Source: Christensenellales bacterium
Lineage (GTDB): Bacteria; Bacillota; Clostridia; Christensenellales; UBA3700
Length of the DNA: 64,000 nt
Direction: 5' to 3'
Assembly: GCA_051883455.1 (NCBI GenBank)
Contig: JBJETT010000012.1
Span: forward strand, 64,833-128,832
The notes under the pieces: model-generated
Database searches by the model: none
Seen by the model: only the letters and a program-made list of their open reading frames with translations
Told to the model about the DNA's origin: nothing
Position numbers and translations under genes: made by a program
In this document: piece after piece, positions 1,960 through 58,435 of the stretch
Numbering within the stretch: position 1 is the stretch's first letter
How the letters are laid out: the number at the start of each line of letters is the position of its first letter

Positions 1960-2345
1960 AACCGTGGCAATCTCAAGTGCTTTGTCATTGCGAAGCCGTT
2001 AGGCTGTGGCAATCTCAACCGTATATAAGCCTCCTTTGTGCAAAGGGAGGTGTCTCACGGCGTATATACTTCGCAATACAGTGTCGAGTTTGCGGTTTTG
2101 TATCGGTCACATACGTTTTGACGGCGAATATACTACGCAATACAGTGTCGAGTTTGCGGTAGCTTATCGGTCACATACGATATAGTATGCTCCCTCACGC
2201 TATCCTCACTCTCCTTGTCTTGCTTGTATCTACACCGTCAAAATAATATAGTATGCTCCCTCACGCCGTCCTCACTCTCCTTGTCTTGCTCGTATCTCCA
2301 CCGTGAGCGAGCCGCTTAAGCCGAGACGGAGGGAGTGCATACTAT
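1960..2345. repeat. intergenic repeat array A (host repeat family, mostly reverse orientation)
   Basis: Contains two GTGGCAATCTC / TTTGTCATTGCG hairpin units, the hairpin CCTCCTTTGTGCAAAGGGAGG (2030-2050), two MITE-like heads (CACGGCGTATATACTTCGCAATACAGTGTCGAGTTTGCGG) and two tail units (AGTATGCTCCCTCACGC...CTCCTTGTCTTGCT...CCACCGT). Confidence 0.9.
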
Positions 2346-13879: not shown

Positions 13880-14555
13880 CTTTTGACGGCGGATATACTT
13901 CGTTATACTGTGTCGAGTTTGCGGGTGCGTTCAGTCACGTACGCCCTAGTACGCTCCCTCACGCCGTCCTCACTCTCCTTGTCTAACTCGCATCTCCACC
14001 GTCAAAAAATAGTATGCTCCTATCGCCCAATCCGCACTTTCCTTGTCTAACTCGCATCTCCACCGTCAAAAAATAGTATGCTCCTGTCGCAAAAACTCCG
14101 CTCTTCGCGTCTTACTCGCACCTATGCCGTCAAAGTATATAGCGGATATACTGTGTCGTGCTTAGTCACGTACGCTTAGTACGCTCCTATCGCCCAATCC
14201 GCACTTTCCTTGTCTTGCTTGCATCTACGCACCCAAAGAAAACTGCAAACTCGCACCTATGCCGTCAAAGTATATAGCGGATATACTTCGCAATACTGTG
14301 TCAAAGGGCAATTTTTCTTGCTCACGTACGCAATAGTATGCTCGCTTCGATAAAATCATCGCTTTCCTCGCCTAACTCGCACCTATGCCGCGAGAGGGTA
14401 GTAATATCAACTAATAACAAGAGGCAACGATAAAGTTGCCTTTTTCCTTGTCTTGCTCGCATCTACGCATCCAAAAGTGCTTTGTCATTGCGCTGTGCAC
14501 ATTTTGCGTTATCAAAGACGTAGGCACTTGTTGCCGAAGTGTGGCAATCTCAATC
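13874..14555. repeat. intergenic repeat array B (MITE-like units with tandemly amplified ~60-bp tail sub-units, one GAGATT unit)
   Basis: Begins TTTGACTTTTGACGGCGGATATACTTCGTTATACTGTGTCGAGTTTGCGG. The tail unit TAGTAYGCTCC...CCTTGTCTAACTCGCATCTCCACCGTCAAA recurs at about 13949, 14010, 14073, 14178 and 14334. It ends with a reversed long GAGATTGCCAC...CGCAATGACAAAG unit (14478-14551). Confidence 0.9.
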
Positions 14556-22264: not shown

Positions 22265-22770
22265 TAGGTTTAGTCGTACTCTCAAAGGGTAAGATTAGAA
22301 GCAATCCCTCCGTCTTGCCTTTCGGCGAGCCACCTCCCTTTGCACAAAGGAGGCAGGCAGTCCCCCACTGGACAAAGTCGGGAGTCCCCTTTACACAAAG
22401 GGGCTTTTAAGCGGTTGAGATTCCCACGGCTTGCAAGCAAGCCTCTGAATGACAACATTATTTGGTCTGCGCTCCACCGCAATGACAAAGAGTTCAATCC
22501 CCCAGTCCGCAATGCGGATAGCCCCCTTTACACAAAGGGGCTTTTAAGCGGTTGAGATTCCCACGGCTTGCAAGCAAGCCTCTGAATGACAACATTATTT
22601 GGTCTGCGCTCCACCGCAATGACAAAGAGTTCAATCCCCCAGTCCGCAATGCGGATAGCCCCCTTTACACAAAGGGGCTTTTAAGCGGTTGAGATTCCCA
22701 CGGCTTGCAAGCAAGCCTCGGAATGACAAAACTATTTGGTCTACGCTTTACCGCAAAGACGAAATACTCA
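22265..22770. repeat. intergenic repeat array C, including a 3 x 137-bp tandem repeat (22358-22768)
   Basis: CAATCCCTCCGTCTTGCC double-hairpin module at 22302. CAATCCCCC units start at 22358 (variant), 22495 and 22632. Each unit holds two hairpins plus one GAGATTCCCACGGCTTGCAAGCAAGCCTCTGAATGACAA unit. Confidence 0.95.
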
Positions 22771-27772: not shown

Positions 27773-27864
27773 AAAGTCGATACATATCGACAAAAAAGAT
27801 TCCTTTTGAAATATAAGGGAGTCTTTTTTTTACAAAGAGTGTAAACGTTTTTATTATATTTAGA

Positions 27865-28392
27865 CAACCCTTCCACCACCTACGGTGGTCCCCCTTCCCT
27901 TGCACAGGGGCGGCTTTTTGTATGGATAGAGATTCCCACGGACGTAAACGTCCTCTGAATGACAGACTACTTGGTCGATGCATGCAACGAAATGACATAT
28001 TTATCAATCCCTCCGTCTTGGCATAGGCGGCTTGCGCACGGTGGAGATACGAGCAAGGCAAGGAGAGTGAGGACGGCATGAGGTAGCATACTAAATTGTA
28101 TATGACCGAACGCACCCACAAACTCGACACCGCATTGCGAAGTATATGCCGTGAGACACCCTTCCCGTACACAGGAGGGCGGCAGGCAATCCCCCAGTCC
28201 GCAAGGCGGACAGCCCCCTTTACACAAAGGGGCTTTTTTTATGGAGTAAGATTGCCAAGTTACGCTACGCTCCACCGCAATGACATAAAGCGGTTGAGAT
28301 TGCCGCACTTCGTCTTTGCTAGCGCAAAATGCAGTGGGCGCAATGACAAAAATACGAGATTGCCACGCCAGAGGCTCGCAATGACAAAACTG
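27865..28392. repeat. intergenic repeat array D
   Basis: Double-hairpin variant (CCACC-ACCTAC-GGTGG, then CCCCTTCCCTTGCACAGGGGCGG). Four GAGATT units. A reversed MITE-like unit (28030-28150). A second double hairpin, TCCGCAAGGCGGA + CCCCTTTACACAAAGGGG (28198-28232). Confidence 0.9.
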
Positions 28393-31407: not shown

Positions 31408-31975
31408 TTTGACTTTTGACGGCGGATATGCGTCGTTATACTGTGTCGAGTTTGTGGGTGCGTTCGGTCACGTACGCCTAAGTACGCTCCCTCACGCCGT
31501 CCTCACTTTCCTTGTCTAACTCGCATCTCCACCGTCAAATAGAGGTTAGCGGATATGTTTCGTTATGCATTGTCGACTTTGTAAGTGAAAACAATAAAAA
31601 CTCGATACGTGTCGATATTTTTAGTAAAATTGTGAAGCAAACCGTCAAAAGAAAAGAGTAATTGCTTATAAGATTTAGTCTTACTCTCAAAGGATAGAAC
31701 GGAATACAATCCCTCCGTCTTGCCATTCGGCAAGCCACCTCCCTTTACACAAAGGAGGCTAGAAAAGGATTGAGATTCCCACGTTTCACTCGGAATGACA
31801 AGGATATTATCGCAATGACATAGGAGGCTTTTTAAGCGGTGGAGATTGCCACGTCACTCCGTTCCTCGCAATGACATTAGGGTAGAGATTCCTACGCTCG
31901 CTTTGCTCGCTCTGAATGACAACACTACTTGGTCTACGCTCCACCGCAATGACATCGATATCATCGTAATGACGA
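31408..31975. repeat. intergenic repeat array E
   Basis: Starts immediately after the spoIIE stop with TTTGACTTTTGACGGCGGATATGCG (a complete MITE-like unit to 31535). Then a palindrome at 31596-31622, a double hairpin at 31707-31758 and at least three GAGATT units. Confidence 0.9.
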
Positions 31976-32075: not shown

Positions 32076-33377
32076 GTGATAGACCCTACGATTGTAAAAA
32101 AACTCCAAAAATTCAACTGTTTGGCATTGGCAGTAAGCGGGGGCAAGGACTCTACCTTCTTGCTCAACTATTGGGTGGAAAACCGTGCAATTTTGCCCGA
32201 CTTTTTCGTGGTCAACGTCGACCACAACCTTAGAGGCGAGGAGAGCAAGGCCGATAGCGATTTCGTTAGGAAACTTTGCAAAGAACTTGGCGTAGAGTGC
32301 AAGTGCTACGACGAGGATATCAAGGGCTATTGCAATAGGGGCGGATATGGCTTGGAGCAAGGGGCAAGGCTTAGACGGCGAGAGATTTTTGCCGAGGTAG
32401 TCACGACCACTAGAGCCGAGAGAGTGGTGACGGCGCATCACAAGGACGACCAATGCGAAAGCGTGCTTATGCACGTCTTTAGAGGTAGCGGAATCAACGG
32501 CTTGAAGGGTATGCCTTTTGACGACGGACTTATCTTAAGACCGCTGTTGAATATATCTAGCGACGAGATTGAGAGAGAGATGAAAAGACGGGGTTGGGAA
32601 TACAGAGTGGATAGTTCCAACCTCTCTACCGACTACACTCGCAACAAGTTGAGGGGTGAGATAATACCTACGATAAAACAAGTCTATCCGAGCGTGGTGG
32701 ACAACGTATTGAGATTGGCGAGCATTGCCGAAGATACGCAAAGTTTTATTGATAAGTTTTTGGTGCGCGCCGAGTGGAACGGCGAAGAATTGTCGTTGCC
32801 CGAAAACCTCGCAGAGTGCGACGACGCGGTGGCAACGGCTTCGATTTTCGATGGATTGCAACGAGCGGGTTGGCGTGTGGATATAGAGAAAAAGCACGTG
32901 CAAGCAATAAGGCGGTTGTATGATAAAAAACCACCTTCAAGAGTATCTTTGCCTAGCTCACTTGTGGCTTGGAGAGAGAGAAACGGCGTGGTGATTGCCA
33001 AAGAGCACCGGCAAAAAGACCAAAGATACGAGGTGGACTACGGCTCATACGTTATGGGAGATTGGATAGTCACATTGTCTAAAGAGTATAGTGAGGGCGC
33101 GCTTAGAGCCGATATGGACGAATTGAAAAAAGGCGTATTGAGATATCGTCAAAAGGGCGACAAAATATGCAAGTTTGGCGGTGGAAGCAAGAGTTTGGGA
33201 GACTATCTAACAGACAAAAAAGTGCCTCTCAGATTACGTGACGGGTTAGCCGTAATAGCGAGAGATAGCGACGTGCTGGCAGTGATAGGAGTGGATATAT
33301 CGTCTAAAGTGGCGGTAAGAGAAGATACGAAAGAAATATGTTATCTTAGCGTAAGCAAAAATACGGGAGAAAAATAA
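32076..33377 (+). CDS. tilS: tRNA(Ile)-lysidine synthase
   Basis: PP-loop LAVSGGKDSTFLL, HHKDDQ, GTG start. Sits directly upstream of hpt as in Bacillus. Confidence 0.85.
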   Translation: MIDPTIVKKLQKFNCLALAVSGGKDSTFLLNYWVENRAILPDFFVVNVDHNLRGEESKADSDFVRKLCKELGVECKCYDEDIKGYCNRGGYGLEQGARLRRREIFAEVVTTTRAERVVTAHHKDDQCESVLMHVFRGSGINGLKGMPFDDGLILRPLLNISSDEIEREMKRRGWEYRVDSSNLSTDYTRNKLRGEIIPTIKQVYPSVVDNVLRLASIAEDTQSFIDKFLVRAEWNGEELSLPENLAECDDAVATASIFDGLQRAGWRVDIEKKHVQAIRRLYDKKPPSRVSLPSSLVAWRERNGVVIAKEHRQKDQRYEVDYGSYVMGDWIVTLSKEYSEGALRADMDELKKGVLRYRQKGDKICKFGGGSKSLGDYLTDKKVPLRLRDGLAVIARDSDVLAVIGVDISSKVAVREDTKEICYLSVSKNTGEK

Positions 33378-40384: not shown

Positions 40385-40410
40385 AAAAAGTCGATACGTA
40401 TCGACTTTTT
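40385..40410. terminator. recurrent palindrome AAAAAGTCGATACGTATCGACTTTTT (consensus copy)
   Basis: Perfect 26-nt palindrome overlapping the stop codon of the convergent ferritin-like gene. Confidence 0.7.
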
Positions 40411-40977: not shown

Positions 40978-41212
40978 TTTGACGGCATAGCTACGTCGCA
41001 ATACTATGTCGAGTTTGTGAAGTATATGTGCCGTGAGGCACCTCCTTTACACAAAGGCTAACAATCCCCCACCCGACTTTCGTCGGGAGCCCCCTTTGCA
41101 CAAAGGGGCCTTTTTATAAGGATGATATTCCCACGCCTTACGGCTCGGAATGACATAACTACTTGAGATTGCCAAAGCATCGGGCGCAATGGCAAACATA
41201 GGAATTGCGGGC
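40978..41212. repeat. intergenic repeat array F
   Basis: A MITE-like head followed by its own inverted copy (40981-41037). A double hairpin with CCCGAC-TTTC-GTCGGG then CCCCCTTTGCACAAAGGGG (41071-41108). Two GAGATT-type units. Confidence 0.85.
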
Positions 41213-41304
41213 AAAGTTACCTCTATGTAAGGATTTGAAAGCACTCAAAACTACGATTTGGGGGATATAATGCTATAAAAAAGCCAAAAATTGATAAAAA
41301 ACAG

Positions 41305-41333
41305 TTGAAATTTGATAATCGGTATGTTATCAT
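41305..41333 (+). promoter_or_regulatory. sigma-A type promoter upstream of secG
   Basis: TTGAAA, a 17-nt spacer, then TATCAT. Confidence 0.45.
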
Positions 41334-41367
41334 ATGTTAGCAATCAAAAAATGGAGGATTGTTATTG

Positions 41368-41664
41368 ATGAACTTTATGTACATGCTCTCGGCTGCATTG
41401 ATACCGGCAGAAGTAACCAACTGGTTGCGTCCAACGCTTCAAATTCTTATGACTTTGGTGAGTGTGGCTGCTATCGTAATAGTTTTGATGCAAAAGGGTA
41501 CTAACGACAATATTGGCGTAATTGGCGGTCAGGAAACCGAAACTTATGCGGGCAAGAATAAGGCAAAATCTAAAGAAAGCGTGTTGAAAAAACTTACCAT
41601 TGTTATGGGCGTTTTGTTCTTGGTGCTTTCGGTATTGTTCTTTATCACTTATCTCGAAGCATAA
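41368..41664 (+). CDS. secG: preprotein translocase subunit SecG
   Basis: Two TM helices flanking LMQKGTNDNIGVIGG. Located upstream of smpB and ssrA. The ATG at 41368 is preferred (GGAGG 10 nt upstream) over the TTG at 41359. Confidence 0.7.
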   Translation: MNFMYMLSAALIPAEVTNWLRPTLQILMTLVSVAAIVIVLMQKGTNDNIGVIGGQETETYAGKNKAKSKESVLKKLTIVMGVLFLVLSVLFFITYLEA

Positions 41665-41753
41665 CGAAATCTAGAAATCGAGTTCCCTTGCTGCAATAGG
41701 CAAGGGAATTTTTTTGACCTAATTGGAAGGTAATATTGCAATGGGGCGGCAAG

Positions 41754-42045
41754 CAATCCCTCCGTCTTGCCTTTCGGCAAGCCACCTCCCTTTGCACAAA
41801 GGAGGCTAAAAGTAGAGATTGCCGCGGCTAAAGCCTTTGCTAACGCAAAATGTACACAGCGCAATGACATAAAGCGGTTGAGATTGCCACACTTCGTTCG
41901 CAATGACATATAGCTTAGATTCCCACGCTTAACGGCTTTACTAACGCAAAATGCACTGGGCGGAATGACAGAAAACACGAGATTCCCATGCCTGACGGCT
42001 CGGAATGACACATTACTTGGTTTAGGCGCCACCGCAATGAAAACA
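41754..42045. repeat. intergenic repeat array G
   Basis: A double hairpin (CTTGCC-TTTC-GGCAAG then CCTCCCTTTGCACAAAGGAGG, 41754-41805) followed by four GAGATT(G/C)CC...AATGACA units, two of them the long CTTTGCTAACGCAAAATG variant. Confidence 0.9.
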
Positions 42046-42173
42046 CCCTTGAGTCACGGCAAGAGTGTAGAATGTAATCGCTTGCGCTAACAAGATAGGC
42101 GTCAAATTGGACGGCGCTATACAAATAAAAATAACTATATACAAAATAAAAGAAAGAGTGTATAATAATAAAG

Positions 42174-42635
42174 ATGGACAATATCAAGATTGTTGAAAAT
42201 AACAAAAAAGCCTATTTCGATTATTTTATTGAGGACACCTTGGAGGCGGGCATAGTGCTCGTGGGTAGCGAGGTCAAGTCGATAAGACAGGGGCATATCA
42301 ATATCAAAGACAGTTTTTGCACTATCGTGGAAGGAGAAATGTGGCTAATCAACGCACACATCGCGCCTTACGAAAAGGGCAGTTTCTTTAACGTGGATAG
42401 TAGAAGAAAACGCAAACTGCTGATGAACAAAAGAGAGATAAACAAGCTGAGAGGCTACGTCACCCAAAAGGGTTACACCCTAGTGCCGACCAAGGTTTAC
42501 TTTAAGCAAGGCTTGGTCAAGGTGGAAGTGGGACTTGCCAAAGGTAAAGAGCTCCACGATAAGAGGCGCTCTCTGGCTGAAAAGCAGACTAAACGCGACG
42601 TGGAAAGACAAATCAAACAATATAATGCAAAATAA
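42174..42635 (+). CDS. smpB: SsrA-binding protein
   Basis: [29 protein letters not shown] and a basic C-terminal tail. Confidence 0.9.
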
Positions 42636-44874: not shown

Positions 44875-45088
44875 CATTTTTGTTTGGTCACATACAAGGA
44901 GTATGCTCCCTGCACAAAAGCCGCGTTCTCCTTGTCTCGCTCGCATCTCCACCGTCAAATGTGGAGGATAGCGGATATGCGACGTTAGGCTTTGTCAAGC
45001 GGCAATTTTTCTTGCTCACGTACGCCTAGTACGCTCGCTTCGATAAAATCACCGCTTTTCGCGCCTAACTCGCATCTTCACCGTAAAA
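44836..45088. repeat. intergenic repeat array H (two MITE-like units)
   Basis: Head-plus-tail units at 44836-44960 and 44968-45088, matching arrays B and E. Confidence 0.9.
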
Positions 45089-45356
45089 TGGGGGATAAGA
45101 TAAACTAAACTAGGGCAAAACACGTTGTGGTGTAAACAACTTTCCGCTCCCTTAAGACGGCAAATCCATTTGACATAAGTTCGTAATTTTGGAAGAATTT
45201 GTGTGGCGAAATAGGTTGTAAATTAATATAAAGTTATGTAAAATATAGTTGCTGAGCAATTAGATTGGGGATAATTTACTTGTAATCCAATTGCTTTGAG
45301 ACAATTAGCGTTGCTAAGTAAAAAAATCAAAAAAGTCGACACGTATCGACTTATTT

Positions 45357-45699
45357 GGGGGTGTTACGGATTCGACAGGAGAAATGAGGACTGTGTAAGC
45401 ACGGCGAAGGCTCGGCTTCGTAAAAACGGAAATTAAATTTAAACGCTAATAATAACAAACAAATTGCCGTAGCTGCTTAATCGCTCGGCTGTCGTCCAAG
45501 GGCTCCACGACTTTGGAACGGCATCAGTCAGTGGAAAGTGCCTAAGGGAAGCACCCGTGCCCATAGGCGAGATTAGGGCTTGTTCGACGACGACTTGGTA
45601 GCGTTGGCGCCGTCGAAGACCAATCAACGCATACTAACCGTGTAGAAAGCCCAGTAAGAATTCTTTTGGACGCGGGTTCAACTCCCGCCATCTCCACCA
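45357..45699 (+). ncRNA. ssrA: tmRNA (transfer-messenger RNA)
   Basis: 5' GGGGGUGUUACGGAUUCGAC. 3' GGACGCGGGUUCAACUCCCGCCAUCUCCACCA, whose acceptor stem pairs with the 5' end. Tag ORF GCT AAT AAT AAC AAA CAA ATT GCC GTA GCT GCT TAA (45445-45480) encodes ANNNKQIAVAA. smpB lies upstream. Confidence 0.95.
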
Positions 45700-45703
45700 C
45701 TCT

Positions 45704-45748
45704 AAACCTAACTTGAACCATTGATATGGGTGAGAGTTAGGTTTTTTA
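45704..45748 (+). terminator. intrinsic terminator after ssrA
   Basis: AAACCTAACT...AGTTAGGTTT stem followed by TTTTAT. Confidence 0.7.
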
Positions 45749-45775
45749 TTGTCCAGTTATTTGGCTCTTGCAGGT

Positions 45776-46912
45776 TTAGCATATAAACATTTCGATAAGC
45801 ATCTTTTTGGTATTAAGTTTTGGGGCGTTGGGCTTTTTATAATGCAAATGACCGATAATTGAACAAAAAGAAAAACCCTGACTGTCGTCAAGGTTTAATC
45901 GTGTTGGGTTGTTGAATATGATTTTTACTTTGTCTTCGTATAAGATTATTTCTTTCACCAGATGCTCAATCAGCATTTTTGGTTCGAGTTTTAGGGCTTC
46001 TATATAGAACTTACGCATTTCGCTTTCTGATATTTTTGTCTGTTGTCGACTTTTTTCTATTATGATTTCCTTTTCTAGACTATCTTGTTGTTGCTCAAGT
46101 TCCTTTAATCTTTGGATAGTGGTTCTTGTGGAAGCGCCGTTTTCGATTGCTTTTACGATATTGTTTAATGCTTTATCAACTTTACTTTTTTCTTTAGTTA
46201 GCATTGATAGGGTTTGATTCATCATTGTGTTTTCTTGCATTTTTAGCAAGGTTGGCACGATTTTGTTGATGATTTCAGGTTTGCTCATTTCTTTAATTAT
46301 GGCATTTATAATTAGTTCTTCCAAATACTCTTTGCGAACTTGCGATTTTAGACAACCGTTGTGGTCAATTTTTCTACCTTTACACTTGTAGTATCTAATT
46401 ACGCTACCGTTTTTTGCAGTTCCTGTTTCCGCAACAATCGGTCTGCCACAATATCCACAAGTTACTTTACTTCTCAATAAGTATTCGGTTTTTACGCTCC
46501 GTTTGCCATATCTATTTTTGTCTATCTTTGAACGGACGATAGAGTATATTTCCGTTGAGATAATTTGTGGATAAGTATTGTAGAAGACTTCGTCTTTATA
46601 TCGGTATACACCCGAATATTTTTCGTTTTTTAATATTCCGTATATGGTGTTTTGAGCAAACGGTTTTCCTTTGTGGTAAATACATTTATTGTTTAAGTTG
46701 TCGATAATTTCTCTAACGTAAGTGCCTTTTGCATATTCTTGGAAGATGTATCTAACGATTTCCGCTTCATTTTCGTCGATTATGATTTTTTGTTGGTTTA
46801 GTTTGTAGCCATAGGGTAGACCTCCACCGTGATAAAGTTCTTTCAATCTTGTTTCTCTCATTCCACGTCTAATCTTTTGCGAGAGTTCTGCCGAATAATA
46901 TTCTGCGTATCC
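45776..46912 (-). pseudogene. large serine recombinase, C-terminal 378 codons (recombinase domain and zinc ribbon), severed from its catalytic domain
   Basis: The frame stays open upstream of the track Met (46861) to 46939 and reads ...FDLLEGYAEYYSAELSQKIRRGMRETRL. There is no resolvase catalytic domain. The missing N-terminus is at 57866-58246. Confidence 0.8.
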
Positions 46913-46962
46913 TTCAAGTAGGTCAAATGGACATAATGCCTATTTTGAGGGTAGTTGGTTTG

Positions 46963-48588
46963 TTAAGTCGATAGAACCGAGTCAATATCAATCTTATAGT
47001 AGATATGAATCTCCTGCGGTTTTCCCGTAACCGTTTCTTTACCGCCGATGACAAGGTGATCGAATAACGCCAAACACATTTCACGGGTGAGCGTAGGAGA
47101 ATTAAAATACATTTTCAGCCTTAGGATAAATTCGTCCACGTCCGTCTTTACTTGCGTCAATTCTTCGATTCCCTGCGTAAGAGTGGTTACTTTCTCTTTC
47201 AGTTCCGTCTGTTCGGCGGTGTACTTTTCGATTAACTTCACGCACACGCTTTCGGGAATTATGCCTGCAACTTTTTCTTCAAACGCAGCTTCAATTAGCT
47301 TGTCAAGTTCGGTTAATCGCTTGTCGGCTCTTTTAAGATCTTTCTTGACGTCGGCTTGATTTCTGTCCGCAAGCGTCGCTTGCCGTTCCAGATACTGCCG
47401 TTTGAATTCCGCTTCGTGCCCTATAATCATTTTGGCTTTTGCGGCAATATCGTTTTTGACAATCTGTTCCAAAACGGGTACCGTAATGAAATGACTGAAA
47501 CAAGCAGACGATCCTAACCGTGATTTACTTCCGCAGTTGAAGTTGAAATACGGAATATCTTTCGGCATATTCCAACCAAGCCGCATTTTAGCGCCGCAGT
47601 CCGCGCAGAACATCAGTCCCGATAACGGGTGCATAAAACCTCTTGCAGTATGCTTTCCGTGTCCTATGGCTTTTTCGACCTCCTTGACTTTATCCCAGAG
47701 TTCTTTCGAGATAATGGCTGGGTGTGCGTTTTCGACGATAATCCATTCTTCTTCAGGACGGCGTTGCCACTTATGGTTCTTGTATGAAATTGTAGTTGAT
47801 TTGTGTTGAACTAAATTGCCGATATACGCCTGATTGTTCAGTAGAGTACGGAGAGCGGAAGTACTCCATAGGTGAGCAGAATTTCTGACGCCGTTTATGC
47901 CCGTCTTTGCAATGCGGTAATCGTTGGGCGTTAATACCTTTTCGACGTTGAGAATATCCGCTATCTTTCTCGGCGTTAAGTCGCTTGCCCGCATTTCAAA
48001 AATGCGTTTTACAATAGGTGCGGTTTCTTCGTTTATTTGCAGGGTACGTTTTTCGTCCGTTCCAAGTATGTAACCGTACGGCGGGTGGGACATTCCGTTT
48101 TTGCCTTCCTTTGCGTTCTTGATACGCACGGCGCGCAACTTCTTGCTTGTGGTTGCCGCCCACCATTCGTTAAACACGTTGGTAATCGGCATCATATCCA
48201 TAGCGGGAGTGTCTTTTTTCTCCGTGTCGATATTGTCCGATAGCGCCACAAACCGTATTCCGAACGTAGGGAAGACGTAATCGAGATACTGTCCTACCAT
48301 AATGTAGTTTCTTCCGAAACGGCTCATATCCTTTACGAGAATAGTATTGATAACCCCTTGCTTAGCGTCTTCGAGTAATCTCTTTACTCCCGGTCTTTCA
48401 AACGTGGTTCCCGAAATTCCGTCGTCCACATAAATATTATGGAGGGTCCAGCCCTGTTCTTCGATATACTCTGAAAGGATAGCCTTTTGGTTTTCGATAG
48501 ATAGCGATTCGCCAGCACGTTCGTCGTCTCGGCTTAATCTTACGTACATTCCGACAATGTAGTCTTTGTTGTTTTGCTTTGATTTCAT
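46963..48588 (-). CDS. large serine recombinase (TnpX/TndX-like)
   Basis: Catalytic domain YVRLSRDDERAGESLSIENQ...VKDMSRFGRN, a recombinase domain, a Cys-rich zinc ribbon (CADCGAKM...CGSK) and a C-terminal coiled coil. The start is moved to MKSKQNN at 48588 (AGGAGT RBS). Confidence 0.9.
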   Translation of the reverse strand: MKSKQNNKDYIVGMYVRLSRDDERAGESLSIENQKAILSEYIEEQGWTLHNIYVDDGISGTTFERPGVKRLLEDAKQGVINTILVKDMSRFGRNYIMVGQYLDYVFPTFGIRFVALSDNIDTEKKDTPAMDMMPITNVFNEWWAATTSKKLRAVRIKNAKEGKNGMSHPPYGYILGTDEKRTLQINEETAPIVKRIFEMRASDLTPRKIADILNVEKVLTPNDYRIAKTGINGVRNSAHLWSTSALRTLLNNQAYIGNLVQHKSTTISYKNHKWQRRPEEEWIIVENAHPAIISKELWDKVKEVEKAIGHGKHTARGFMHPLSGLMFCADCGAKMRLGWNMPKDIPYFNFNCGSKSRLGSSACFSHFITVPVLEQIVKNDIAAKAKMIIGHEAEFKRQYLERQATLADRNQADVKKDLKRADKRLTELDKLIEAAFEEKVAGIIPESVCVKLIEKYTAEQTELKEKVTTLTQGIEELTQVKTDVDEFILRLKMYFNSPTLTREMCLALFDHLVIGGKETVTGKPQEIHIYYKIDIDSVLST

Positions 48589-49194
48589 TCTTTTACTCCT
48601 TTGAATCAAAGCAGCCTGAATTTTCAATGTGCTATGATTATACCACGACACACCAAAAAATTCAAGCTACCCGATAATATATTTAGTTTGCAGAATTTTT
48701 CATTTCCGCAAGTACTTGTCTGAAAGCCAAATCGCCGAATACCTTTTTGAAGTCTTTGCCTCCGACGTAATGACTTACGACTACGTACTTTTTTCCGTTT
48801 ATGATCTCGGTATGAGAAGTAGTAGGAACGCTGTCTCTCCCGTTGATCAGCTGTGTTGATGCTCTGTTCGTAATTTTCCCTCCTATATCTTGTTAATTTG
48901 TCATTCATATTCAGTTTTCATATTTAATTCCTCCGTGTCGTCGCCGCAAACTTTGCTTTGAGCCGCCCTTTGGCACAGACGGCAACATTGCGTCGTTGCG
49001 GCTCCTCTTCCCACAAAAATATTTCATCTTTTTGCGGAAACCCTTTTGCACGATTCCTTAATGCGGTTTATCCGCATAACCGTTCAAACGGCATTTTTTC
49101 GTATAAAAAAGCCGTGATTACTCTTTCAATCCTTTTACCTTTTCACATTCATTAGGACGTATTCTTCACGGTCATTTTTTGTCTTATTCAGTTG

Positions 49195-50166
49195 TTACTT
49201 TCCGCCTTTACCGTTTGCGTTACTATGTACGTTAAAGGAAGAAGACGGGGTTTTCTTTTCTCTTGACTTCTTTAATAGTTCGTCGAATTCTTTGGGGTAT
49301 GCGCTCATCATATCCGCTACCATTCCGAACGCTGCGTCGTTTGCCTTGGCTTTGCGTTCCGCTTTTTGCAGTTGCGCAAACAGAGAATCGGTATCTCTGT
49401 TTTTGATAGCGATATACTCTTTGTAGGCGGCGTTTTGCGTTCGCAGACTTTCTATTTCCGCCTCAACAGCCTTCCGCATTTTGGGGATAGGCTTGTTTTT
49501 CGCATCTTCAACTACTTGAACAGTCTGCGTTAATTCGTCCAGCTCGGCTCTCTTTTTCTCGGTCTGTTCGTCGATTTCTCTTTCACGCTGTTCTGCACTC
49601 TCGATTATCTTCTTTGCCTTAAATTCTGCCGTGGAGAGGTGCTTTGCCTGACTGCCTTCCTTGCCTCGTTGTAATCCCCATTTCTTGCCGATTCTCTCGT
49701 GCAATTCGGTTTGGAGTTCGGCAAGTTTCTGCCTGTCAAAAAGACTTTTACTGCTCAACCGTCCTTGGTTGACAGGAATGAAATTGAGGTGCATATGCGG
49801 CGTGGTTTCATCCATATGTACGACTGCGGAAATCATATTTTCTTCCCCGTACTTGTCCGAAAAGAACTGCACACAGTCCTTGAAAAATTCCTGCTGTTCC
49901 CACGGGTATAGCCCCTTAAAAAACTCGCCGTCCGACGTTACTATAAACGAATTCATAAGAATAGCGTCCGAACGGATTTTGCGTTTTAAATCCAACTCCG
50001 ATAGCCTCTCGTTGATTATCTCCATATAGCTTTTCCTCGGCAATATAAGGTGATAATTGAGGTGCGTTCTCGAACTGTCTATCTGCGGATTGCTCGCCTG
50101 ATAGGTCTCGTCTCTTTCATTTTCCTCCTCGACAGGGCTGACTTCCTGCCGTTTATATTTTTCCAT
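49195..50166 (-). CDS. MobV-family relaxase (Mob/Pre plasmid recombination enzyme) with an atypical N-terminus
   Basis: NPQIDSSRTHLNYHL and the HMDETTPHMHLNFIP (HxDExxPHxH) motif, then a coiled-coil C-terminal half. The usual MSY...HNxR N-terminal segment is replaced (ENER). Confidence 0.8.
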   Translation of the reverse strand: MEKYKRQEVSPVEEENERDETYQASNPQIDSSRTHLNYHLILPRKSYMEIINERLSELDLKRKIRSDAILMNSFIVTSDGEFFKGLYPWEQQEFFKDCVQFFSDKYGEENMISAVVHMDETTPHMHLNFIPVNQGRLSSKSLFDRQKLAELQTELHERIGKKWGLQRGKEGSQAKHLSTAEFKAKKIIESAEQREREIDEQTEKKRAELDELTQTVQVVEDAKNKPIPKMRKAVEAEIESLRTQNAAYKEYIAIKNRDTDSLFAQLQKAERKAKANDAAFGMVADMMSAYPKEFDELLKKSREKKTPSSSFNVHSNANGKGGK

Positions 50167-50206
50167 ATGACATACTAAATAACTGATAATTTTTTCCTCC
50201 TACACC

Positions 50207-50271
50207 GCTTGCGCCTTGCACTATGCGCAAGCTCATCTCGGCTTGCCCAAACAGCGCACTGTGCTGTTTGG
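50207..50271 (-). other. candidate oriT (two inverted repeats immediately upstream of the relaxase gene)
   Basis: GCTTGCGC-N10-GCGCAAGC (50207-50232) and CCAAACAGC-GCACTGT-GCTGTTTGG (50247-50271). Confidence 0.4.
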
Positions 50272-50388
50272 AAAACTGCAAGCCTCGTCTCACAGAGCGA
50301 ACGGAACTTATGAAATAAGTGTAGTGAGTTACACCTATGATAAGGACATAGGTTTTGCTTCCCGTTTGCTTCCAAGTTGCTTGACATA

Positions 50389-51063
50389 TTAACCGCTTGC
50401 TCCTTTGCGACTGCGGAAGGTTTCAACTGCCTTATACAAAGACATTGAATGAGTATCTTCGTTTTCCTTTACAAACTCGTAAAGCTCGTTTACATCCACA
50501 CCGTCTAATATCGGATTCTGAAAACTTAAATTCCCCGTACAGCCGAACACTTTTAATTCATCTATCGTGTGTAAAGTAGTAGGAGTTTCCTGCTTAGGTT
50601 TCTTTGCTGTACCGCCTTTGCTTCCTGCCTTTCTCCGTTTAATGGAAGTGTTTAGAGTTAGCAACGTTAACTCGTAATACTTCTTGACTGTAGCAGATAA
50701 TTCCTTGGGTTGTCTGCCGTTGAACGCTAACTCGCATATTGCCTGCAAGTATTCCTTCGCTTTGTCATCTTCAAGGGATAGCATTTTGTTGTAATAGTTC
50801 CTGCGGAAAGTGAAGTGCTTCCATTTGGCGTTGTATGCCTTGGGCGTTTTGACTTGCAGTTCCTTTTCCCGTTGCGGAGCCAATACTTCCACAAGATCTT
50901 CCCAGATAAGTGCCTGAGTTTTGTCTGTAGGTGTTTCCTCGTTTCCGTCCAGCATATAGCGGCATATATGCCCGATAATGCTCTTTACGGTTGCCCCGTC
51001 CTCGTCCTTCACCAAATCCCAATATGGCTGGTAAAAAGTAAATTTGTCTTGTTTGTTTTCCAT
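50389..51063 (-). CDS. hypothetical protein of the mobile element
   Basis: 224-aa ORF in the same orientation as the mob gene. No motif recognised. Confidence 0.55.
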   Translation of the reverse strand: MENKQDKFTFYQPYWDLVKDEDGATVKSIIGHICRYMLDGNEETPTDKTQALIWEDLVEVLAPQREKELQVKTPKAYNAKWKHFTFRRNYYNKMLSLEDDKAKEYLQAICELAFNGRQPKELSATVKKYYELTLLTLNTSIKRRKAGSKGGTAKKPKQETPTTLHTIDELKVFGCTGNLSFQNPILDGVDVNELYEFVKENEDTHSMSLYKAVETFRSRKGASG

Positions 51064-51330
51064 TTCATTCTCCTTTTAATGTTTGATTTAATTACAAAAG
51101 CGGAACTGTTAATTACAGCTCCGCTTTTAGGTTGGTGTTATTCAGTTGTCTTTCAATTTGGTGGTGCTCGTGCCATGTCTTTCTCCTTTTTCGGTATAAG
51201 AAAAACCTGCAACAGACTTGTTACAGGTTTTATACCGTTTATTTTGTTGAAGGGGTCTTATCTACCCTCTCACTTATATAAGGACAACTACTGCCCGAAA
51301 TTATGCAAGTAATTTAAATAATTAAAAGTT

Positions 51331-52536
51331 TTATGCTTTCAACGTCTGCCAACGCTTTTTCTCCTTTGCCGGTAGACGGCTTATTATCTTTTCTATCTGT
51401 TCCGAAATGGGAGTAGTCTCGTCATCTGCCATAAAACGGACGTTTAACTGTTTCTTTGCAAAATCAATAAACTGATTTGTATTTCGTTCTTCAAGGTATG
51501 GCACAAATTTGGTTTCAAAATATTCCATAGGCTTCATTTTTGCCGCCTTAGCGACTTTTACAAGTTCCGTAATAAACTCTTTATATCTGTAATCTTTGGG
51601 TTTGGTAAAGCGTTCTTCACGCCGTTCAATCTCCTCTTGCAAGTGCAGGTACAGCCATTGATATTCAATGGGTAAATCGGTCATATAAGTCCAAAAATAA
51701 CCACGTATTGTCAGGTCCTTTAAGGTAAACATTTCCCGATATACGTTTCCCTGCGACAGGTCGTCCAACCGATAATATAGCAAGTTCTTAATGCCGTAAC
51801 GGTAGAGTTCAGTCTGCGTATAAAACCAACAGCGCAAACGTTCTTCTTCCTGCGGGAGTAGGCAGGAGAGGAAGTCGGTCATAACCACGTTTTCATTGTG
51901 CTCTAACTTACCAGTCTTGCGGTAGCGGTTGTAGAGGTAGTCTACCTCAATATCGATTGAGCCACGACTGCCGTCGTCTAAGGATTGCTTATCAAACGCC
52001 TCGGTAAGTTGTTGTAATAACCTCGATACCTGATATTGTTTTAACTTTAAATGCTTGGCTATTTCCTCTTGAGTGCAGTCGTATTTGTAGTATAAATCAT
52101 ACAACCTTTTACCGAATTTAGTCAGTTTAGAGTACAGACTATTCCTGTCAATATTATCGCAATTGTCCCTCTCGCAGGTTAGGCTTTTCTCGTCCGCTTG
52201 ATGTTCCATAGGGTCGTCTTCTTCGCCGTCCTCGTCCTCGTAAACAGGGAATCGGGCAAAGTAGCGGTCATCATAAAACTTTAAGTCGTGCCTTAATGCT
52301 TTCTTATTAAAGGCGTATAATGCCGTCCATTGTTCCTTGGTAACTTCGGTTTTAATTGTTATGCCGTCAACCTTTTGGAAGTAATAATACATACCTTCCG
52401 TCTTAGCCTTTTTCGGGTAACGGTTTAGATAATATTCCTCATTCTCCTGCCAGCAAAGCGGATCCTTTGCATGCAACGGCTCTCTTTTCTTCGCCTTAAT
52501 CTTCCTTTTCTCGTCCATTCCCGTCTTTTTACGCAA
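51331..52536 (-). CDS. hypothetical protein with a sigma-70 region-4-like helix-turn-helix
   Basis: 401 aa. The segment CTQEEIAKHLKLKQYQVSRLLQQL looks like an HTH. Confidence 0.55.
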   Translation of the reverse strand: MRKKTGMDEKRKIKAKKREPLHAKDPLCWQENEEYYLNRYPKKAKTEGMYYYFQKVDGITIKTEVTKEQWTALYAFNKKALRHDLKFYDDRYFARFPVYEDEDGEEDDPMEHQADEKSLTCERDNCDNIDRNSLYSKLTKFGKRLYDLYYKYDCTQEEIAKHLKLKQYQVSRLLQQLTEAFDKQSLDDGSRGSIDIEVDYLYNRYRKTGKLEHNENVVMTDFLSCLLPQEEERLRCWFYTQTELYRYGIKNLLYYRLDDLSQGNVYREMFTLKDLTIRGYFWTYMTDLPIEYQWLYLHLQEEIERREERFTKPKDYRYKEFITELVKVAKAAKMKPMEYFETKFVPYLEERNTNQFIDFAKKQLNVRFMADDETTPISEQIEKIISRLPAKEKKRWQTLKA

Positions 52537-52589
52537 ACATACGTTTATAATTTTTCTTGTATTATAAACCTATCTTCACAAAAAGTCAA

Positions 52590-52623
52590 CAGCCAAATGT
52601 CCACGTTCATGGACATTTGGCTG
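52590..52623. promoter_or_regulatory. perfect 14-bp inverted repeat in a divergent promoter region (candidate TetR operator)
   Basis: CAGCCAAATGTCCA-CGTTCA-TGGACATTTGGCTG, between the divergent 401-aa gene and the TetR gene. Confidence 0.4.
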
Positions 52624-52749
52624 TTTGTGGTGAGTTTTTTATGATTTTGTATAAGTAATAAGTGAGAAGTTAAGCGGAATCACTTGACATACGACCGTTC
52701 GGTAGGTATAATTATATTATGATATGATAGCAGATAAGGAGTATGCGCA

Positions 52750-53364
52750 ATGGATAAAGGAAATACAAAGCGTGAAATTCTGAATGTGGCGCTTGATTTA
52801 TTTTCAACGCAGGGATTCGAGGCGACTTCGATTTCACAGATAGCAGAAGCCGTCGGGATTCGCAAGGCGTCGCTTTACAGTCATTTCGAGAGCAAGCAGG
52901 CTGTTTTGGACGCTTTGATGCTTCAGGTGTTGGAAGGATATGCAAAGCAATCACTCTTTGCCAAGCCGAAACGGCAAGTTGGCGACGGCGCTTGTCCTAT
53001 AACCTGCGACGAGGTTGTAAGTCTGGTAAAAAGCCAGATAAATTATATTCTTCACGACCCCTTTATCCGTAAAGCCAGAAAGATGCTTACTATCGAACAG
53101 TTCAGGAATCAGGAACTTGCTGACCTTCAAACCAAGCAGAACTATACCGACGTAATGCATTATTTTACCAACCTTGTGATTTGTCTGCAAGAGCAAGGCG
53201 TTATAGACGGCGACGACCCCGAAATCATGGCGGCACAGTTCTGTCTGCCGATTACCGTATGGATAAACCTATGCGACCGTGAACCGGACCGAGAGACGGA
53301 AGTTATGGAATTGGTGGATAAGCATATTCGGCAGTTTTTTAAACTCTATCAGCCAAAGGCTTAG
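52750..53364 (+). CDS. TetR/AcrR family transcriptional regulator
   Basis: N-terminal KREILNVALDLFSTQGFEATSISQIAEAVGIRKASLYSHF. Confidence 0.85.
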   Translation: MDKGNTKREILNVALDLFSTQGFEATSISQIAEAVGIRKASLYSHFESKQAVLDALMLQVLEGYAKQSLFAKPKRQVGDGACPITCDEVVSLVKSQINYILHDPFIRKARKMLTIEQFRNQELADLQTKQNYTDVMHYFTNLVICLQEQGVIDGDDPEIMAAQFCLPITVWINLCDREPDRETEVMELVDKHIRQFFKLYQPKA

Positions 53365-53411
53365 TGAATTTATGAGTAAATACGATGCTTTGTGGGTGCG
53401 GAGGGGTTATT

Positions 53412-53615
53412 ATGACAATGTGGAATCCGTGGAGAGGCTGTAAAAAATGCAGTGACGGGTGTCTGCATTGCTATATTCATAAAGACGATGCCAAGCGCAA
53501 TATAAACACAAACGACATTTTAAGAACCAAAGATTTTTCTAAACCCACAGAGAAATTGAAAAACGGCAATTACAAAATGAAAAGCGGAATGGAGAGGTTC
53601 TGGCGGCGGCACTGA
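53412..53615 (+). pseudogene. 5' remnant of a DUF5131 (phage Gp37/Gp68-like) gene
   Basis: MWNPWRGCKKCSDGCLHCYIH matches the family N-terminus, but the ORF stops after about 67 aa (the family is about 250 aa by my recollection). Confidence 0.5.
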
Positions 53616-53725
53616 GAATATGAATACGTTATGCAACTCGGTCGAATAATTATCACGTCTAAACAACTCTACACTATAACACCAAGGTTGACTGTTATGT
53701 TATAATTATTTAAAAGGTGTGGATT

Positions 53726-54460: not shown

Positions 54461-54472
54461 GGAGAATTTAAA

Positions 54473-55188: not shown

Positions 55189-55232
55189 TTCGGTGTAGTG
55201 TGAATAACACTCAATCCGAGAGATGATAACGT

Positions 55233-58427: not shown

Positions 58428-58435
58428 TATTTGTT

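What the first reader, a model, noticed from the sequence alone, without database searches (positions are those of the whole stretch)
41815..42045. Arrays of GAGATT(G/C)CCAC...AATGACA units show strict head/tail covariation
I count about 19 such units across the arrays, at about 1964, 2006, 14478-14551, three in 22420-22700, four in 27930-28390, three in 31772-31915, two in 41124-41195 and four in 41815-42010.

Every head reading ATTGCC is paired with a tail reading CGCAATG(A/G)CA (at least 9 units). Heads reading ATTCCC or ATTCCT are paired with CGGAATGACA (5 units) or CTGAATGACA (5 units). I found no ATTGCC head with a GGAAT tail. ATTGC/GCAAT and ATTCC/GGAAT are reverse complements, so the outer stem is maintained by compensatory change.

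The interior varies. It is either a short GC hairpin (for example GGCTTGC-AA-GCAAGCC or GGACGT-AA-ACGTCC) or a conserved long insert, CTTTGCTAACGCAAAATGYAC. Conservation of pairing rather than sequence is the signature of a selected RNA or DNA hairpin.
Basis: seen in the sequence. Interest (0 to 1): 0.7.

Follow-up and report, generated by a model that had tools for sequence, protein, structure and literature searches.

The report
Arrays of REP-like DNA hairpin repeats
The flagged units are real copies of a small hairpin-forming DNA repeat, a relative of the 'CGTC-tagged' REP elements and of the Neisseria dRS3/NIME arrays, that has piled up between genes in this Clostridia genome and also occurs in more than 20 bacterial phyla and in phage contigs; its pairing is kept by compensatory changes, but what copies it is still unknown.

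Summary
The window holds 18 complete units (GAGATT[G/C]CC…[C/G]AATGACA) plus one head-only copy, in seven intergenic arrays, against 0.11 expected by chance. G-heads always pair with GCAAT tails and C-heads with GAAT tails.

Searches of public genomes, viral contigs and plasmids show the same unit in more than 20 bacterial phyla and in phage contigs. The 5-bp basal stem shows G-C, C-G, T-A and A-T at its variable position, with compensated changes at three other positions. The apical hairpin is hypervariable but almost perfectly complementary: 26 compensated double changes against 3 one-sided ones.

Read on the other strand, the unit is TGTC-ATTSC…GSAAT-CTC. This fits the CGTC/TGTC-tagged REP superfamily of Di Nocera et al. 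2013, which includes Neisseria dRS3. A Novosphingobium copy is nearly identical.

The evidence favours a non-autonomous DNA hairpin repeat over a gene-specific RNA element:
- The arrays sit between terminators and promoters.
- They are absent from a syntenic relative.
- Across 240 loci they show no orientation bias and no associated gene.
- Related phage contigs show filled and empty sites.

The mobilising enzyme is unknown. Verdict: real, structurally selected, and a new member of a known kind.

The parts
41815..42045 (+). Array G, the finding itself. It has four head-to-tail units: 41815-41869 (G-type, long insert), 41880-41908 (G-type, minimal), 41916-41970 (C-type, long insert) and 41979-42010 (C-type, GCC-TGAC-GGC hairpin). 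Spacers are 8-10 nt. A degenerate headless tail module follows at 42011-42045.
   Evidence: The array lies between the secG terminator (about 41683-41715) and the smpB promoter (42138-42166). The syntenic relative L241 lacks it.
41124..41194 (+). Array F, with two units: 41124-41155 (C-type, canonical hairpin) and 41165-41194 (G-type, AATGGCA tail).
   Evidence: It lies upstream of the secG promoter (41291-41333). L241 lacks it.
31772..31975 (+). Array E. Units are at 31772-31800 (C-type), 31842-31876 (G-type) and 31885-31921 (ATTCCT head, CTGAAT tail). There is an orphan tail at about 31801-31820, a headless tail module at 31922-31954, and a CGTAATGAC tail variant at about 31955-31975.
   Evidence: It lies between spoIIE (29140-31407) and tilS (32076-33377).
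27929..28386 (+). Array D. A C-type unit at 27929-27964 is followed by a headless tail at 27966-27997, then X, Y and H modules. Units follow at 28248-28285, 28296-28348 (long insert) and 28356-28386.
   Evidence: It lies downstream of the SpoU methylase gene (27221-27772).
22386..22760 (+). Array C. It is a 137-bp x2.7 tandem repeat. Each copy holds an H hairpin module, a C-type unit (22417-22454, 22554-22591, 22691-22728) and a headless tail module.
   Evidence: It lies in the divergent spacer upstream of spoVT (22851-23363).
14483..14551 (-). Array B. It is a single long-insert G-type unit on the minus strand, directly after the terminator of the minus-strand DUF1846 gene.
   Evidence: It is 94% identical to a unit in L026.
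1966..2016 (-). Array A. It has one canonical G-type unit (1983-2016) and a head-only copy (1966-1974). It lies upstream of a TTGACA-17-TATAAT promoter of a minus-strand ABC ATPase gene.
41754..41806 (+). H module, a GC hairpin of the form CCTCCCTTTGCACAAAGGAGG. It directly precedes the unit array. Equivalent copies lie at 2029-2052(-), 22302-22354, 22495-22545, 22632-22682, 28187-28237, 31707-31759 and 41088-41109.
   Evidence: module map. The copy at 41091-41108 scores as terminator-like.

Best explanation
**What it is.** The units are copies of a small, non-autonomous palindromic DNA repeat of the REP type.

**Anatomy.** Read on the complementary strand, each unit has these parts:
- an unpaired 5' tag, TGTC;
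- a 5-bp basal stem, ATTSC/GSAAT;
- a conserved irregular joint: a G.G mismatch, an A-T pair, a bulged G, then an R-Y closing pair;
- a hypervariable GC-rich apical hairpin;
- a 3-nt tail, CTC.

This is the architecture of the CGTC/TGTC-tagged REP superfamily. Neisseria dRS3 belongs to that superfamily.

**Shown.**
- The pairing is selected.
- The family is spread over many phyla and phage contigs.
- Single units are present or absent between close relatives.
- In this Christensenellales-like genome the units have accumulated, with other repeat modules, into head-to-tail mosaic arrays. The arrays sit in the dead space between terminators and promoters.

**Inferred.**
- The element extrudes as a hairpin on single-stranded or supercoiled DNA.
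- A trans-acting enzyme specific for both structure and tag recognises the conserved unpaired bases. It could be a Y1/HUH-type or another recombinase and has not been identified. It copies, moves or recombines the units.
- Local recombination and slippage between the conserved heads and tails then build and reshuffle the arrays, as proposed for NIMEs.
- Hairpin-templated correction may explain why the two apical arms change together.
For: **Structure.**
- Basal-stem covariation is shown.
- The closing pair CACG..CTC alternates with CACA..TTC.
- 112 of 209 unique interiors carry perfect apical stems of 4 bp or more.
- Among near-identical interiors there are 26 compensated double changes, 3 one-sided in-stem changes and 0 uncompensated double changes.

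**DNA rather than RNA.**
- Apical stems show no wobble bias: G.T 3 against A.C 2 among only 11 mismatches.
- Orientation is unbiased relative to flanking ORFs in 240 loci: genome loci 24 co-oriented and 35 anti-oriented, viral loci 33 and 32.
- The arrays lie after terminator hairpins and before promoters.
- No Rfam family matches.

**Insertion-like behaviour.**
- The syntenic relative L241 (SmpB 90% identical) has a 134-bp secG-smpB spacer, against 510 bp here, and no units.
- Related phage contigs show filled and empty sites: L206 against L157, L210 and L156; L195 against L217.
- L026 shares the same modules in a different order.

**Non-autonomous.** No protein family recurs next to the units.

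**Family link.**
- Novosphingobium pSA1 carries CGTCATTGCGAGCGTAGCGACGCAATCCA as a tail-to-tail dimer. The unit type seen here reads TGTCATTGCGAGCGTAGCGTGGCAATCTC on the complementary strand.
- The defining features are taken from PMC3733652.
- The dRS3 consensus and the NIME description are taken from PMC1797815.
Against: - No mobilising enzyme was found. The ssDNA/HUH step rests only on analogy with REP-RAYT and IS200/IS605.
- No target-site duplication or precise ends could be defined from the two filled/empty comparisons, so deletion rather than insertion is not excluded.
- Within the window, all four arrays that lie between co-directional genes point the same way as those genes. This is compatible with an RNA role, or with a replication-strand bias, since GC skew marks + as the leading strand.
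- Nine of 99 rows have a G.T at the A-T joint pair on the GAGATT strand. This hints at wobble tolerance.
- About half of the window's units are structurally decayed.
- The family differs from the published CGTC definition: a 5-bp basal stem plus an apical hairpin instead of a continuous 8-9 bp stem, a CTC tail rather than CCA, and tandem rather than head-to-head organisation.
Confidence: 0.7

Rival explanations
1. The units are transcribed and act as RNA hairpins. They could be mRNA 3'-end stabilisers, RNase processing sites or attenuators for the neighbouring genes, as shown for some E. coli REPs.
For: - The hairpin has covarying stems.
- In the window, every array between co-directional genes shares their orientation.
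- There is a G.T at the joint pair in 9 of 99 rows.
- Reverse-strand RNA folds are more stable: 153 units against 29.
Against: - There is no orientation bias relative to genes in 240 other loci.
- Apical stems have no G.U excess. The reverse-strand advantage comes largely from alternative folds of short units.
- The arrays sit downstream of terminator hairpins and upstream of promoters.
- Two arrays lie in divergent promoter regions.
- A relative with the same genes lacks them completely.
- No Rfam match.
Confidence: 0.12
2. The units are host-used DNA sites rather than selfish repeats. [quoted passage not shown] They could also serve a nucleoid or topoisomerase protein that promotes recombination or insulates neighbouring genes. 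This is the function proposed for dRS3 in NIME arrays.
For: - The arrays are mosaic, with module reshuffling between the window and L026.
- The unpaired bases are conserved across phyla, which suggests protein recognition.
- dRS3 is a phage integration target (PMC1797815).
Against: - No recombinase or IS is found inserted in or next to units in 240 loci.
- The integrative element in this window sits at the tmRNA gene, not at a unit.
- The distribution among close relatives is patchy.
- Many copies are decayed.
- This reading overlaps with the main explanation rather than excluding it.
Confidence: 0.12
3. The head/tail association only reflects two sequence subfamilies that each inherited their own head and tail. 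No selection on pairing is involved.
For: Inside the window there are only two states, so the association could stem from one ancestral event. Three C-type units are tandem duplicates.
Against: - All four Watson-Crick combinations occur at the variable position, and there are compensated changes at positions 2, 3 and 5, in unrelated taxa.
- There were 0 mixed units among 150 hits when both positions were left free.
- Apical-stem changes are compensated 26 to 3.
- Shuffle and slid controls support pairing.
Confidence: 0.02
4. The arrays belong to another repeat-array system: CRISPR, a type III toxin-antitoxin RNA array (ToxI-like) or integron attC cassettes.
For: The units are head-to-tail with 8-10 nt spacers and have variable interiors.
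Against: - The repeats are not identical in length or sequence.
- The 'spacers' are self-complementary.
- No cas, toxin or integrase gene flanks any of the seven arrays.
- The R''/R' attC core sites are absent.
- In other genomes the units occur singly or as inverted dimers.
Confidence: 0.01

Closest known systems
CGTC-tagged palindromic repeats (CGTC REP superfamily; Di Nocera, De Gregorio & Rocco 2013, PMC3733652)
   Same: - Both have an unpaired 5' tag, CGTC or TGTC.
- Both stems open with A-T then T-A.
- Both have a 3-nt unpaired tail.
- Both are intergenic and occur in many phyla.
- Both form inverted dimers in most genomes.
- Neither has an associated transposase.
- A Novosphingobium copy differs from the window-type unit at about 5 of 29 positions.
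   Different: - Here the continuous stem is only 5 bp, followed by a conserved mismatch/bulge joint and a hypervariable apical hairpin 2 to more than 10 bp long. The published stems are 8-9 bp with 4-5 nt loops.
- The tail is CTC, not CCA.
- The units form head-to-tail tandem clusters, which the paper calls rare.
- The host is a Clostridia (Christensenellales-like) genome. No Firmicutes appear in the paper's strain list.
Neisseria dRS3 elements and NIME arrays (PMC1797815; dRS3 = CGTC-1 in PMC3733652)
   Same: - ATTCCC…GGGAAT-type inverted arms surround a variable centre.
- Many copies are clustered in intergenic arrays and interleaved with other repeat families.
- The arrays differ between relatives.
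   Different: - dRS3 is a fixed 20 bp (6-bp arms, 8-nt centre). The units here are 28-68 nt.
- The C-type tail here is CGGAAT or CTGAAT.
- dRS3 is a known integration target of Nf prophages. No such use is seen here.
- In 2007 NIMEs were said not to occur outside Neisseria.
GTAG REPs / BIMEs / REPINs with RAYT (TnpA-REP) transposases
   Same: - Both are short extragenic palindromes with a conserved unpaired tetranucleotide at the foot of the hairpin.
- Both have stems that vary with retained pairing.
- Both form dimers and clusters.
- Both are presumed to be handled as single-stranded DNA.
   Different: - The tag is TGTC/CGTC, not GT[AG]G.
- No RAYT/Y1 gene was found near any unit, and none among the window ORFs scanned.
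- Sequences of this type are not in the RAYT-linked REP table of PMC6006769.
- The flanks are conserved across phyla instead of being species-specific.
Integron attC sites and IS200/IS605 subterminal hairpins
   Same: Structure is conserved while stem sequence varies. Recognition is of a folded single strand plus a few unpaired bases.
   Different: - The attC R''/L''-L'/R' core sites are absent.
- There are no cassettes and no IntI.
- There is no tnpA or tnpB, and no paired left and right ends.

Membership tests
CGTC-tagged REP superfamily (Di Nocera 2013) | Unpaired tetranucleotide tag, CGTC (variants TGTC, CCTC), at the 5' end of the palindrome | tested here: met
   The reverse complement of the tail …AATGACA is TGTCATT… in 17 of 18 window units and TGCC in one. 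CGTC and TGTC forms occur in other loci and in Novosphingobium.
CGTC-tagged REP superfamily (Di Nocera 2013) | Stem begins with complementary A-T and T-A at positions 1 and 2 | tested here: met
   ATT…AAT occurs in all window units. In the 99-row test the counts are pair 1 A-U 89/99 and pair 2 U-A 90/99.
CGTC-tagged REP superfamily (Di Nocera 2013) | 3-nt unpaired tail (consensus CCA) | tested here: inconclusive
   A conserved 3-nt tail exists, but it is CTC (the reverse complement of GAG), with ATC, CTA and CTT variants. CCA is seen in the Novosphingobium copy.
CGTC-tagged REP superfamily (Di Nocera 2013) | Continuous 8-9 bp stem and 4-5 nt loop | tested here: not met
   The structure is a 5-bp basal stem, a G.G / A-T / bulge joint, then a variable apical stem of 2 to more than 10 bp with 2-5 nt loops. 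The Novosphingobium CGTC copy has the same interrupted architecture, so the published 'stem length' may be an idealisation.
CGTC-tagged REP superfamily (Di Nocera 2013) | Head-to-head dimers predominant, clusters rare | tested here: not met
   All window units are in head-to-tail tandem arrays. Inverted dimers are common in other genomes. The paper notes large clusters in Neisseria and Wolbachia.
CGTC-tagged REP superfamily (Di Nocera 2013) | No dedicated transposase gene associated | tested here: met
   No protein family recurs near units in 240 loci. A Pfam scan of 103 neighbouring ORFs gave only housekeeping families.
Neisseria dRS3 / NIME | 20-bp element ATTCCCNNNNNNNNGGGAAT | tested here: not met
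   C-type heads read ATTCCC, but the tails are CGGAAT or CTGAAT and the arms are 13-40 nt apart.
Neisseria dRS3 / NIME | Intergenic arrays of the inverted-repeat element interleaved with other repeat families and variable between relatives | tested here: met
   The module map shows H, X, Y and headless-tail modules around the units. L026 has the same modules in a different order. L241 lacks the arrays.
REPIN / RAYT system | GT[AG]G tag at the hairpin foot and a RAYT (Y1 HUH) gene flanked by the repeats | tested here: not met
   The tag is TGTC. None of the 50 window ORFs scanned against Pfam hit a Y1_Tnp family, and none recurs near units elsewhere. The rest of the source genome could not be examined.
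Any Rfam RNA family | Match to a curated covariance model | tested here: not met
   At gathering thresholds only the tmRNA is found. In E-value mode on 41000-42200 there are only chance-level hits.
CRISPR / ToxI-type arrays / integron attC | Identical direct repeats with unique spacers plus cas genes; identical ~36-nt repeats upstream of a toxin; or attC core sites with cassettes and intI | tested here: not met
   Units are heterogeneous (28-68 nt) with self-complementary interiors. The flanking genes are spoVT, spoIIE, tilS, secG, smpB and others.

The most novel reading that the evidence does not exclude
The TGTC-ATTSC…GSAAT-CTC hairpin may be one pan-bacterial and phage-borne 'orphan' mobile element. 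On this reading, its invariant unpaired bases are read by a still unidentified, widely distributed single-strand DNA enzyme. Its apical arms would change in concert through hairpin-templated repair or copying. That would be a transposition or gene-conversion mechanism not covered by RAYT/REPIN, IS200/IS605 or IS110 biology.
Probability: 0.25. Interest if true: 0.75.

Novelty: new member of a known kind. Interest (0 to 1): 0.5.

Why it matters
- REP-type repeats are textbook features of Proteobacteria. Here a clear relative forms NIME-like mosaic arrays in a gut Clostridia lineage.
- The same about 12+12-nt frame recurs in more than 20 phyla and in phage contigs.
- The CGTC branch of REPs has no known mobilising enzyme. 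A family with this breadth, clean covariation and visible gain and loss of single units is good material for finding that enzyme by phylogenetic profiling.
- On the practical side, these units create spurious ORFs with peptides such as …DCHVAALLAMT… and …CHCEERSDVAIS…. They also break assemblies and inflate intergenic regions. Recognising them improves annotation.

Tried and rejected
- **Rfam.** Both the gathering and E-value modes were run. Nothing was found but the tmRNA.
- **Literature by sequence.** Ten characteristic sequence strings returned only unrelated primer hits.
- **Cis-encoded partner.**
  - All-against-all clustering of ORFs within 400 or 1200 bp of units found only spurious repeat-derived ORFs and phage structural genes.
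  - A Pfam scan of 103 neighbouring ORFs gave only housekeeping families.
  - From memory, I suspected an association with small 'four-helix-bundle', GIY-YIG or GxxExxY genes. These scans did not support it.
- **RAYT-linked REP tables.** This sequence type is not in the tables of PMC6006769.
- **Strand choice.** RNA minimum free energy favours the TGTC strand. This is driven largely by alternative folds of short units. Direct mismatch counting shows no G.T or A.C bias. The functional strand stays undetermined.
- **Promoter or terminator function of the units.** Neither was found.
- **Comparative analysis upstream of smpB.** The 80 related metagenome loci hold no units at all. This was useful as an empty-site control but not for covariation.
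- **Exact-protein look-up of the source genome.** Only a 3-kb Logan contig turned up, and it is identical to the window over the upstream region compared.

Full report
A head-only copy lies at 1966-1974 on the minus strand. Simulated windows give 0.11 units on average.
- Nine units have an ATTGCC head, and all nine end in CGCAATG(A/G)CA.
- Nine units have an ATTCCC or ATTCCT head.
- No unit is mixed (Fisher p = 4e-5).
- The interiors are as described. Some are short GC hairpins. Four units carry the insert CTTTGCTAACGCAAAATGYAC, which itself contains a TTTGC-TAAC-GCAAA hairpin.
- Three caveats apply. CTGAAT tails break the fifth pair. Three C-type units belong to one 137-bp x2.7 tandem duplication. 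Only about eight of seventeen units folded as DNA take the canonical shape as their minimum-energy fold.

**2. Organism and context.**
- The window comes from a spore-forming Clostridia genome. It encodes SpoVT, SpoIIE, TilS, SecG, SmpB and a tmRNA, with 44.8% G+C.
- A contig of the Christensenellales MAG LOHA21_bin.035 (L026) shares all the intergenic repeat modules at 83-97% identity.
- The seven arrays are all intergenic: 1966-2016(-), 14483-14551(-), 22386-22760, 27929-28386, 31772-31975, 41124-41194 and 41815-42045.
- Each array is preceded by a GC hairpin module (H) or by the upstream gene's terminator. Further repeat modules (X, Y and a headless tail module) lie nearby.
- The promoters of secG and smpB lie downstream of the arrays. 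The units themselves score as neither promoters nor terminators.

**3. Anatomy.** Written on the complementary strand, a canonical unit reads TGTC-ATTSC-G-A-R[apical hairpin]Y-G-T-G-GSAAT-CTC.
- The ATTSC/GSAAT stem has 5 bp.
- It is followed by a G.G mismatch, an A-T pair, a bulged G and an R-Y closing pair.
- A variable apical stem-loop follows.
- The unpaired tag, joint and tail are the conserved parts.

**4. Is the pairing selected?**
- I scanned one genome per GTDB species with GAGATTSCCAC-N5..35-CGSAATGACA, leaving both S positions free. All 150 hits were complementary: 134 G-C, 16 C-G and none mixed.
- With N at both positions, T-A units appear in Cloacimonadota, Berkelbacteria and a Clostridia MAG. 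A-T units appear in Eubacteriales and Anaerolineaceae.
- I then anchored only on the unpaired bases (GAG-N5-C[AG]C … [TC]C-N5-GACA) over 1.9 Mb of fetched loci plus the window. In 346 of 409 matches the 5-mers were perfectly complementary: ATTGC 308, ATTCC 20, ATCGC 8, ATTAC 5, ATTCT 4 and ACTCC 1.
- In a 99-row test set selected on the 5' arm only, 84% of cells pair. Shuffles give 70.1±0.8% and slid controls 28-37%. Nine of ten pairs show changes on both sides. The covariation score is 0.33 against 0.13, and 0 of 500 shuffles reach it.
- Of 209 unique interiors, 112 carry a perfect apical stem of 4 bp or more, with only 11 mismatches.
- Among same-length interiors that differ at one or two positions, 26 pairs show a compensated double change, including G-C to C-G transversions. 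Only 3 show a one-sided in-stem change and none an uncompensated double change.

**5. Distribution.**
- The record titles of the genome loci cover Chloroflexota, Bacillota, Pseudomonadota, Bacteroidota, Patescibacteria, Armatimonadota, Nitrospirota, Atribacterota, Elusimicrobiota, Spirochaetota, Actinomycetota, Cloacimonadota, Methylomirabilota and others. They include complete genomes of cultured Mucilaginibacter strains.
Some contigs carry 3-5 units.
- BLAST finds the unit, without annotation, on Methylosinus, Methylocystis, Novosphingobium and Halomonas replicons and in uncultured gut phage records.
- The minimal 29-nt unit at 41880-41908 is identical in L026 and in a contig binned as Aminicenantes (L083).

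**6. DNA or RNA, selfish or gene-specific?**
- Apical stems show no G.T over A.C bias.
- Orientation relative to flanking ORFs is random in 240 loci.
- No protein family recurs beside the units.
- A syntenic relative (L241; SmpB 90% identical, same gene order from the phosphoglucomutase gene to the tmRNA) has no units. Its secG-smpB spacer is 134 bp against 510 bp here. None of the 80 smpB loci of more distant relatives has units either.
- Single units are gained or lost in related phage contigs. L206 carries about 50 extra nt (a unit plus short flanks) where L157, L210 and L156 are empty. L195 carries an extra spacer plus unit next to an existing inverted unit, and L217 lacks it.
- Between the window and L026, the units on either side of the same spacer are exchanged. 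This fits recombination at the conserved heads and tails.
- Together this favours a non-autonomous DNA repeat that accumulates where it does no harm.
- Points that keep the RNA reading alive:
  - Inside the window, the four arrays lying between co-directional genes all share the orientation of those genes.
  - GC skew marks + as the leading strand, so 16 of 18 units also share a replication orientation.
  - A G.T occurs at the joint pair in 9 of 99 rows.

**7. What known thing is it?**
- Di Nocera et al. 2013 (PMC3733652) defined a CGTC-tagged REP superfamily. Its features are:
  - an unpaired CGTC, TGTC or CCTC tag;
  - stems opening with A-T and T-A;
  - a 3-nt tail;
  - mostly inverted dimers;
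  - occurrence in five phyla;
  - no dedicated transposase.
- Novosphingobium resinovorum pSA1 carries CGTCATTGCGAGCGTAGCGACGCAATCCA as a tail-to-tail dimer. The unit type found here reads TGTCATTGCGAGCGTAGCGTGGCAATCTC on the complementary strand. The two are plainly homologous.
- The window's units meet the tag, stem-opening and no-transposase criteria.
- They differ from the published definition in three respects:
  - tail sequence;
  - an interrupted stem with a variable apical hairpin;
  - tandem head-to-tail organisation.
- The paper's strain list contains no Firmicutes.
- The units are not RAYT-type REPs. The tag is different, no Y1 gene is present, and they are absent from the REP table of PMC6006769.
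- A 2025 REP survey adds nothing specific on this family.

**8. How it most likely works.**
- Shown:
  - a selected two-stem hairpin with conserved unpaired bases;
  - discrete gain and loss of units;
  - clustering next to other hairpins and units;
  - no cis-encoded enzyme.
- Inferred:
  - The hairpin forms on single-stranded or supercoiled DNA.
  - A trans-acting enzyme reads the tag, the joint and the tail.
  - Copies are made or exchanged near existing hairpins.
  - Recombination and slippage build the mosaic arrays.
- The 26-to-3 excess of two-sided over one-sided apical changes suggests either very strong selection or correction of one arm against the other within the hairpin.
- The enzyme is the main unknown. 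The analogy to Y1/HUH transposases is a lead, not a result.

**9. Verdict.**
- The element belongs to a known kind (REP-like, CGTC/TGTC-tagged, NIME-like arrays). I therefore rate it a new member of a known kind, not a new class.
- Interest is moderate. It comes from:
  - the breadth of the family;
  - its presence in phage contigs;
  - the unusually clean compensatory pattern;
  - the unsolved question of what mobilises CGTC-type repeats.

Noticed in passing
window 45700-63200: Directly after the tmRNA gene (45357-45699) lies what looks like an integrated mobilisable element. Its genes include serine recombinases (45776-46861, 46963-48651), a Mob_Pre relaxase (49195-50166), TetR and MerR regulators, an ABC transporter, a small resolvase (57770-58246), a rolling-circle Rep-like protein (PF23343, 58436-59350) and a C5 DNA methylase (60908-62014). 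G+C drops to 0.39-0.43, and the region holds none of the hairpin units.
   Followed up: partly
window 2049-2304, 13893-14464, 28038-28160, 31443-31536, 44927-44956: Two further repeat modules accompany the unit arrays in both orientations. Module X reads GACGGTGGAGATACGAGCAAGACAAGGAGAGTGAGGACGGCGTGAGGGAGCATACTA. Module Y reads CGTATGTGACCGAACGCACCCACAAACTCGACACCGCATTGCGAAGTATATGCCGTGAGACACC. Some copies are 64-66 bp tandem duplications. The Christensenellales contig L026 shares them. Their nature was not studied.
   Followed up: partly
window 14562-14587, 22770-22787, 27775-27800, 31596-31615, 40385-40410, 45330-45352: Nearly the same palindrome, AAAAAGTCGATACGTGTCGACTTTTT, recurs at the ends of at least six unrelated genes. 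It looks like a bidirectional terminator. The terminators therefore seem to form a repeat family of their own.
   Followed up: no
window 20320-20614: A 54-bp x4.9 tandem repeat (89% matches) lies inside the gene at 18886-20979. That gene encodes a protein with BspA-type leucine-rich repeats and a phage baseplate Gp10 C-terminal domain.
   Followed up: no
window 22456-22487, 22593-22624, 27966-27997, 31922-31954, 42011-42045; also L030, L051, L086, L092: A complete unit is often followed 12-20 nt later by a headless second tail (…CCGCAATGACA). This happens in the window, always after C-type units, and in unrelated phyla. It could be a footprint of how units are copied or deleted.
   Followed up: no
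L206 (reverse strand, about 4890-4940) against L157, L210 and L156; L195 against L217: Related phage contigs differ by the presence or absence of a single unit. In L206 the inserted stretch carries an extra CCCCC…GGGGG outer inverted repeat and sits just upstream of a ribosome-binding site on the other strand. No target duplication was evident.
   Followed up: partly
L083 (Aminicenantes bin) and L026 (Christensenellales bin) against window 41880-41908: The 29-nt unit GAGATTGCCACACTTCGTTCGCAATGACA is identical in the window and in contigs binned to two different phyla. In L083 it also lies in head-to-tail arrays with 7-8 nt spacers. This reflects either strong constraint or a mis-binned contig.
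   Followed up: no
loci L003, L013, L033, L035, L055 and others: Six-frame ORFs across the units give recurrent pseudo-peptides (…CHCEERSDVAIS…, …RLPRRCAPRNDK…, …DCHVAALLAMT…). These cluster as if they were protein families. They are a likely source of spurious 'hypothetical proteins' in databases.
   Followed up: no
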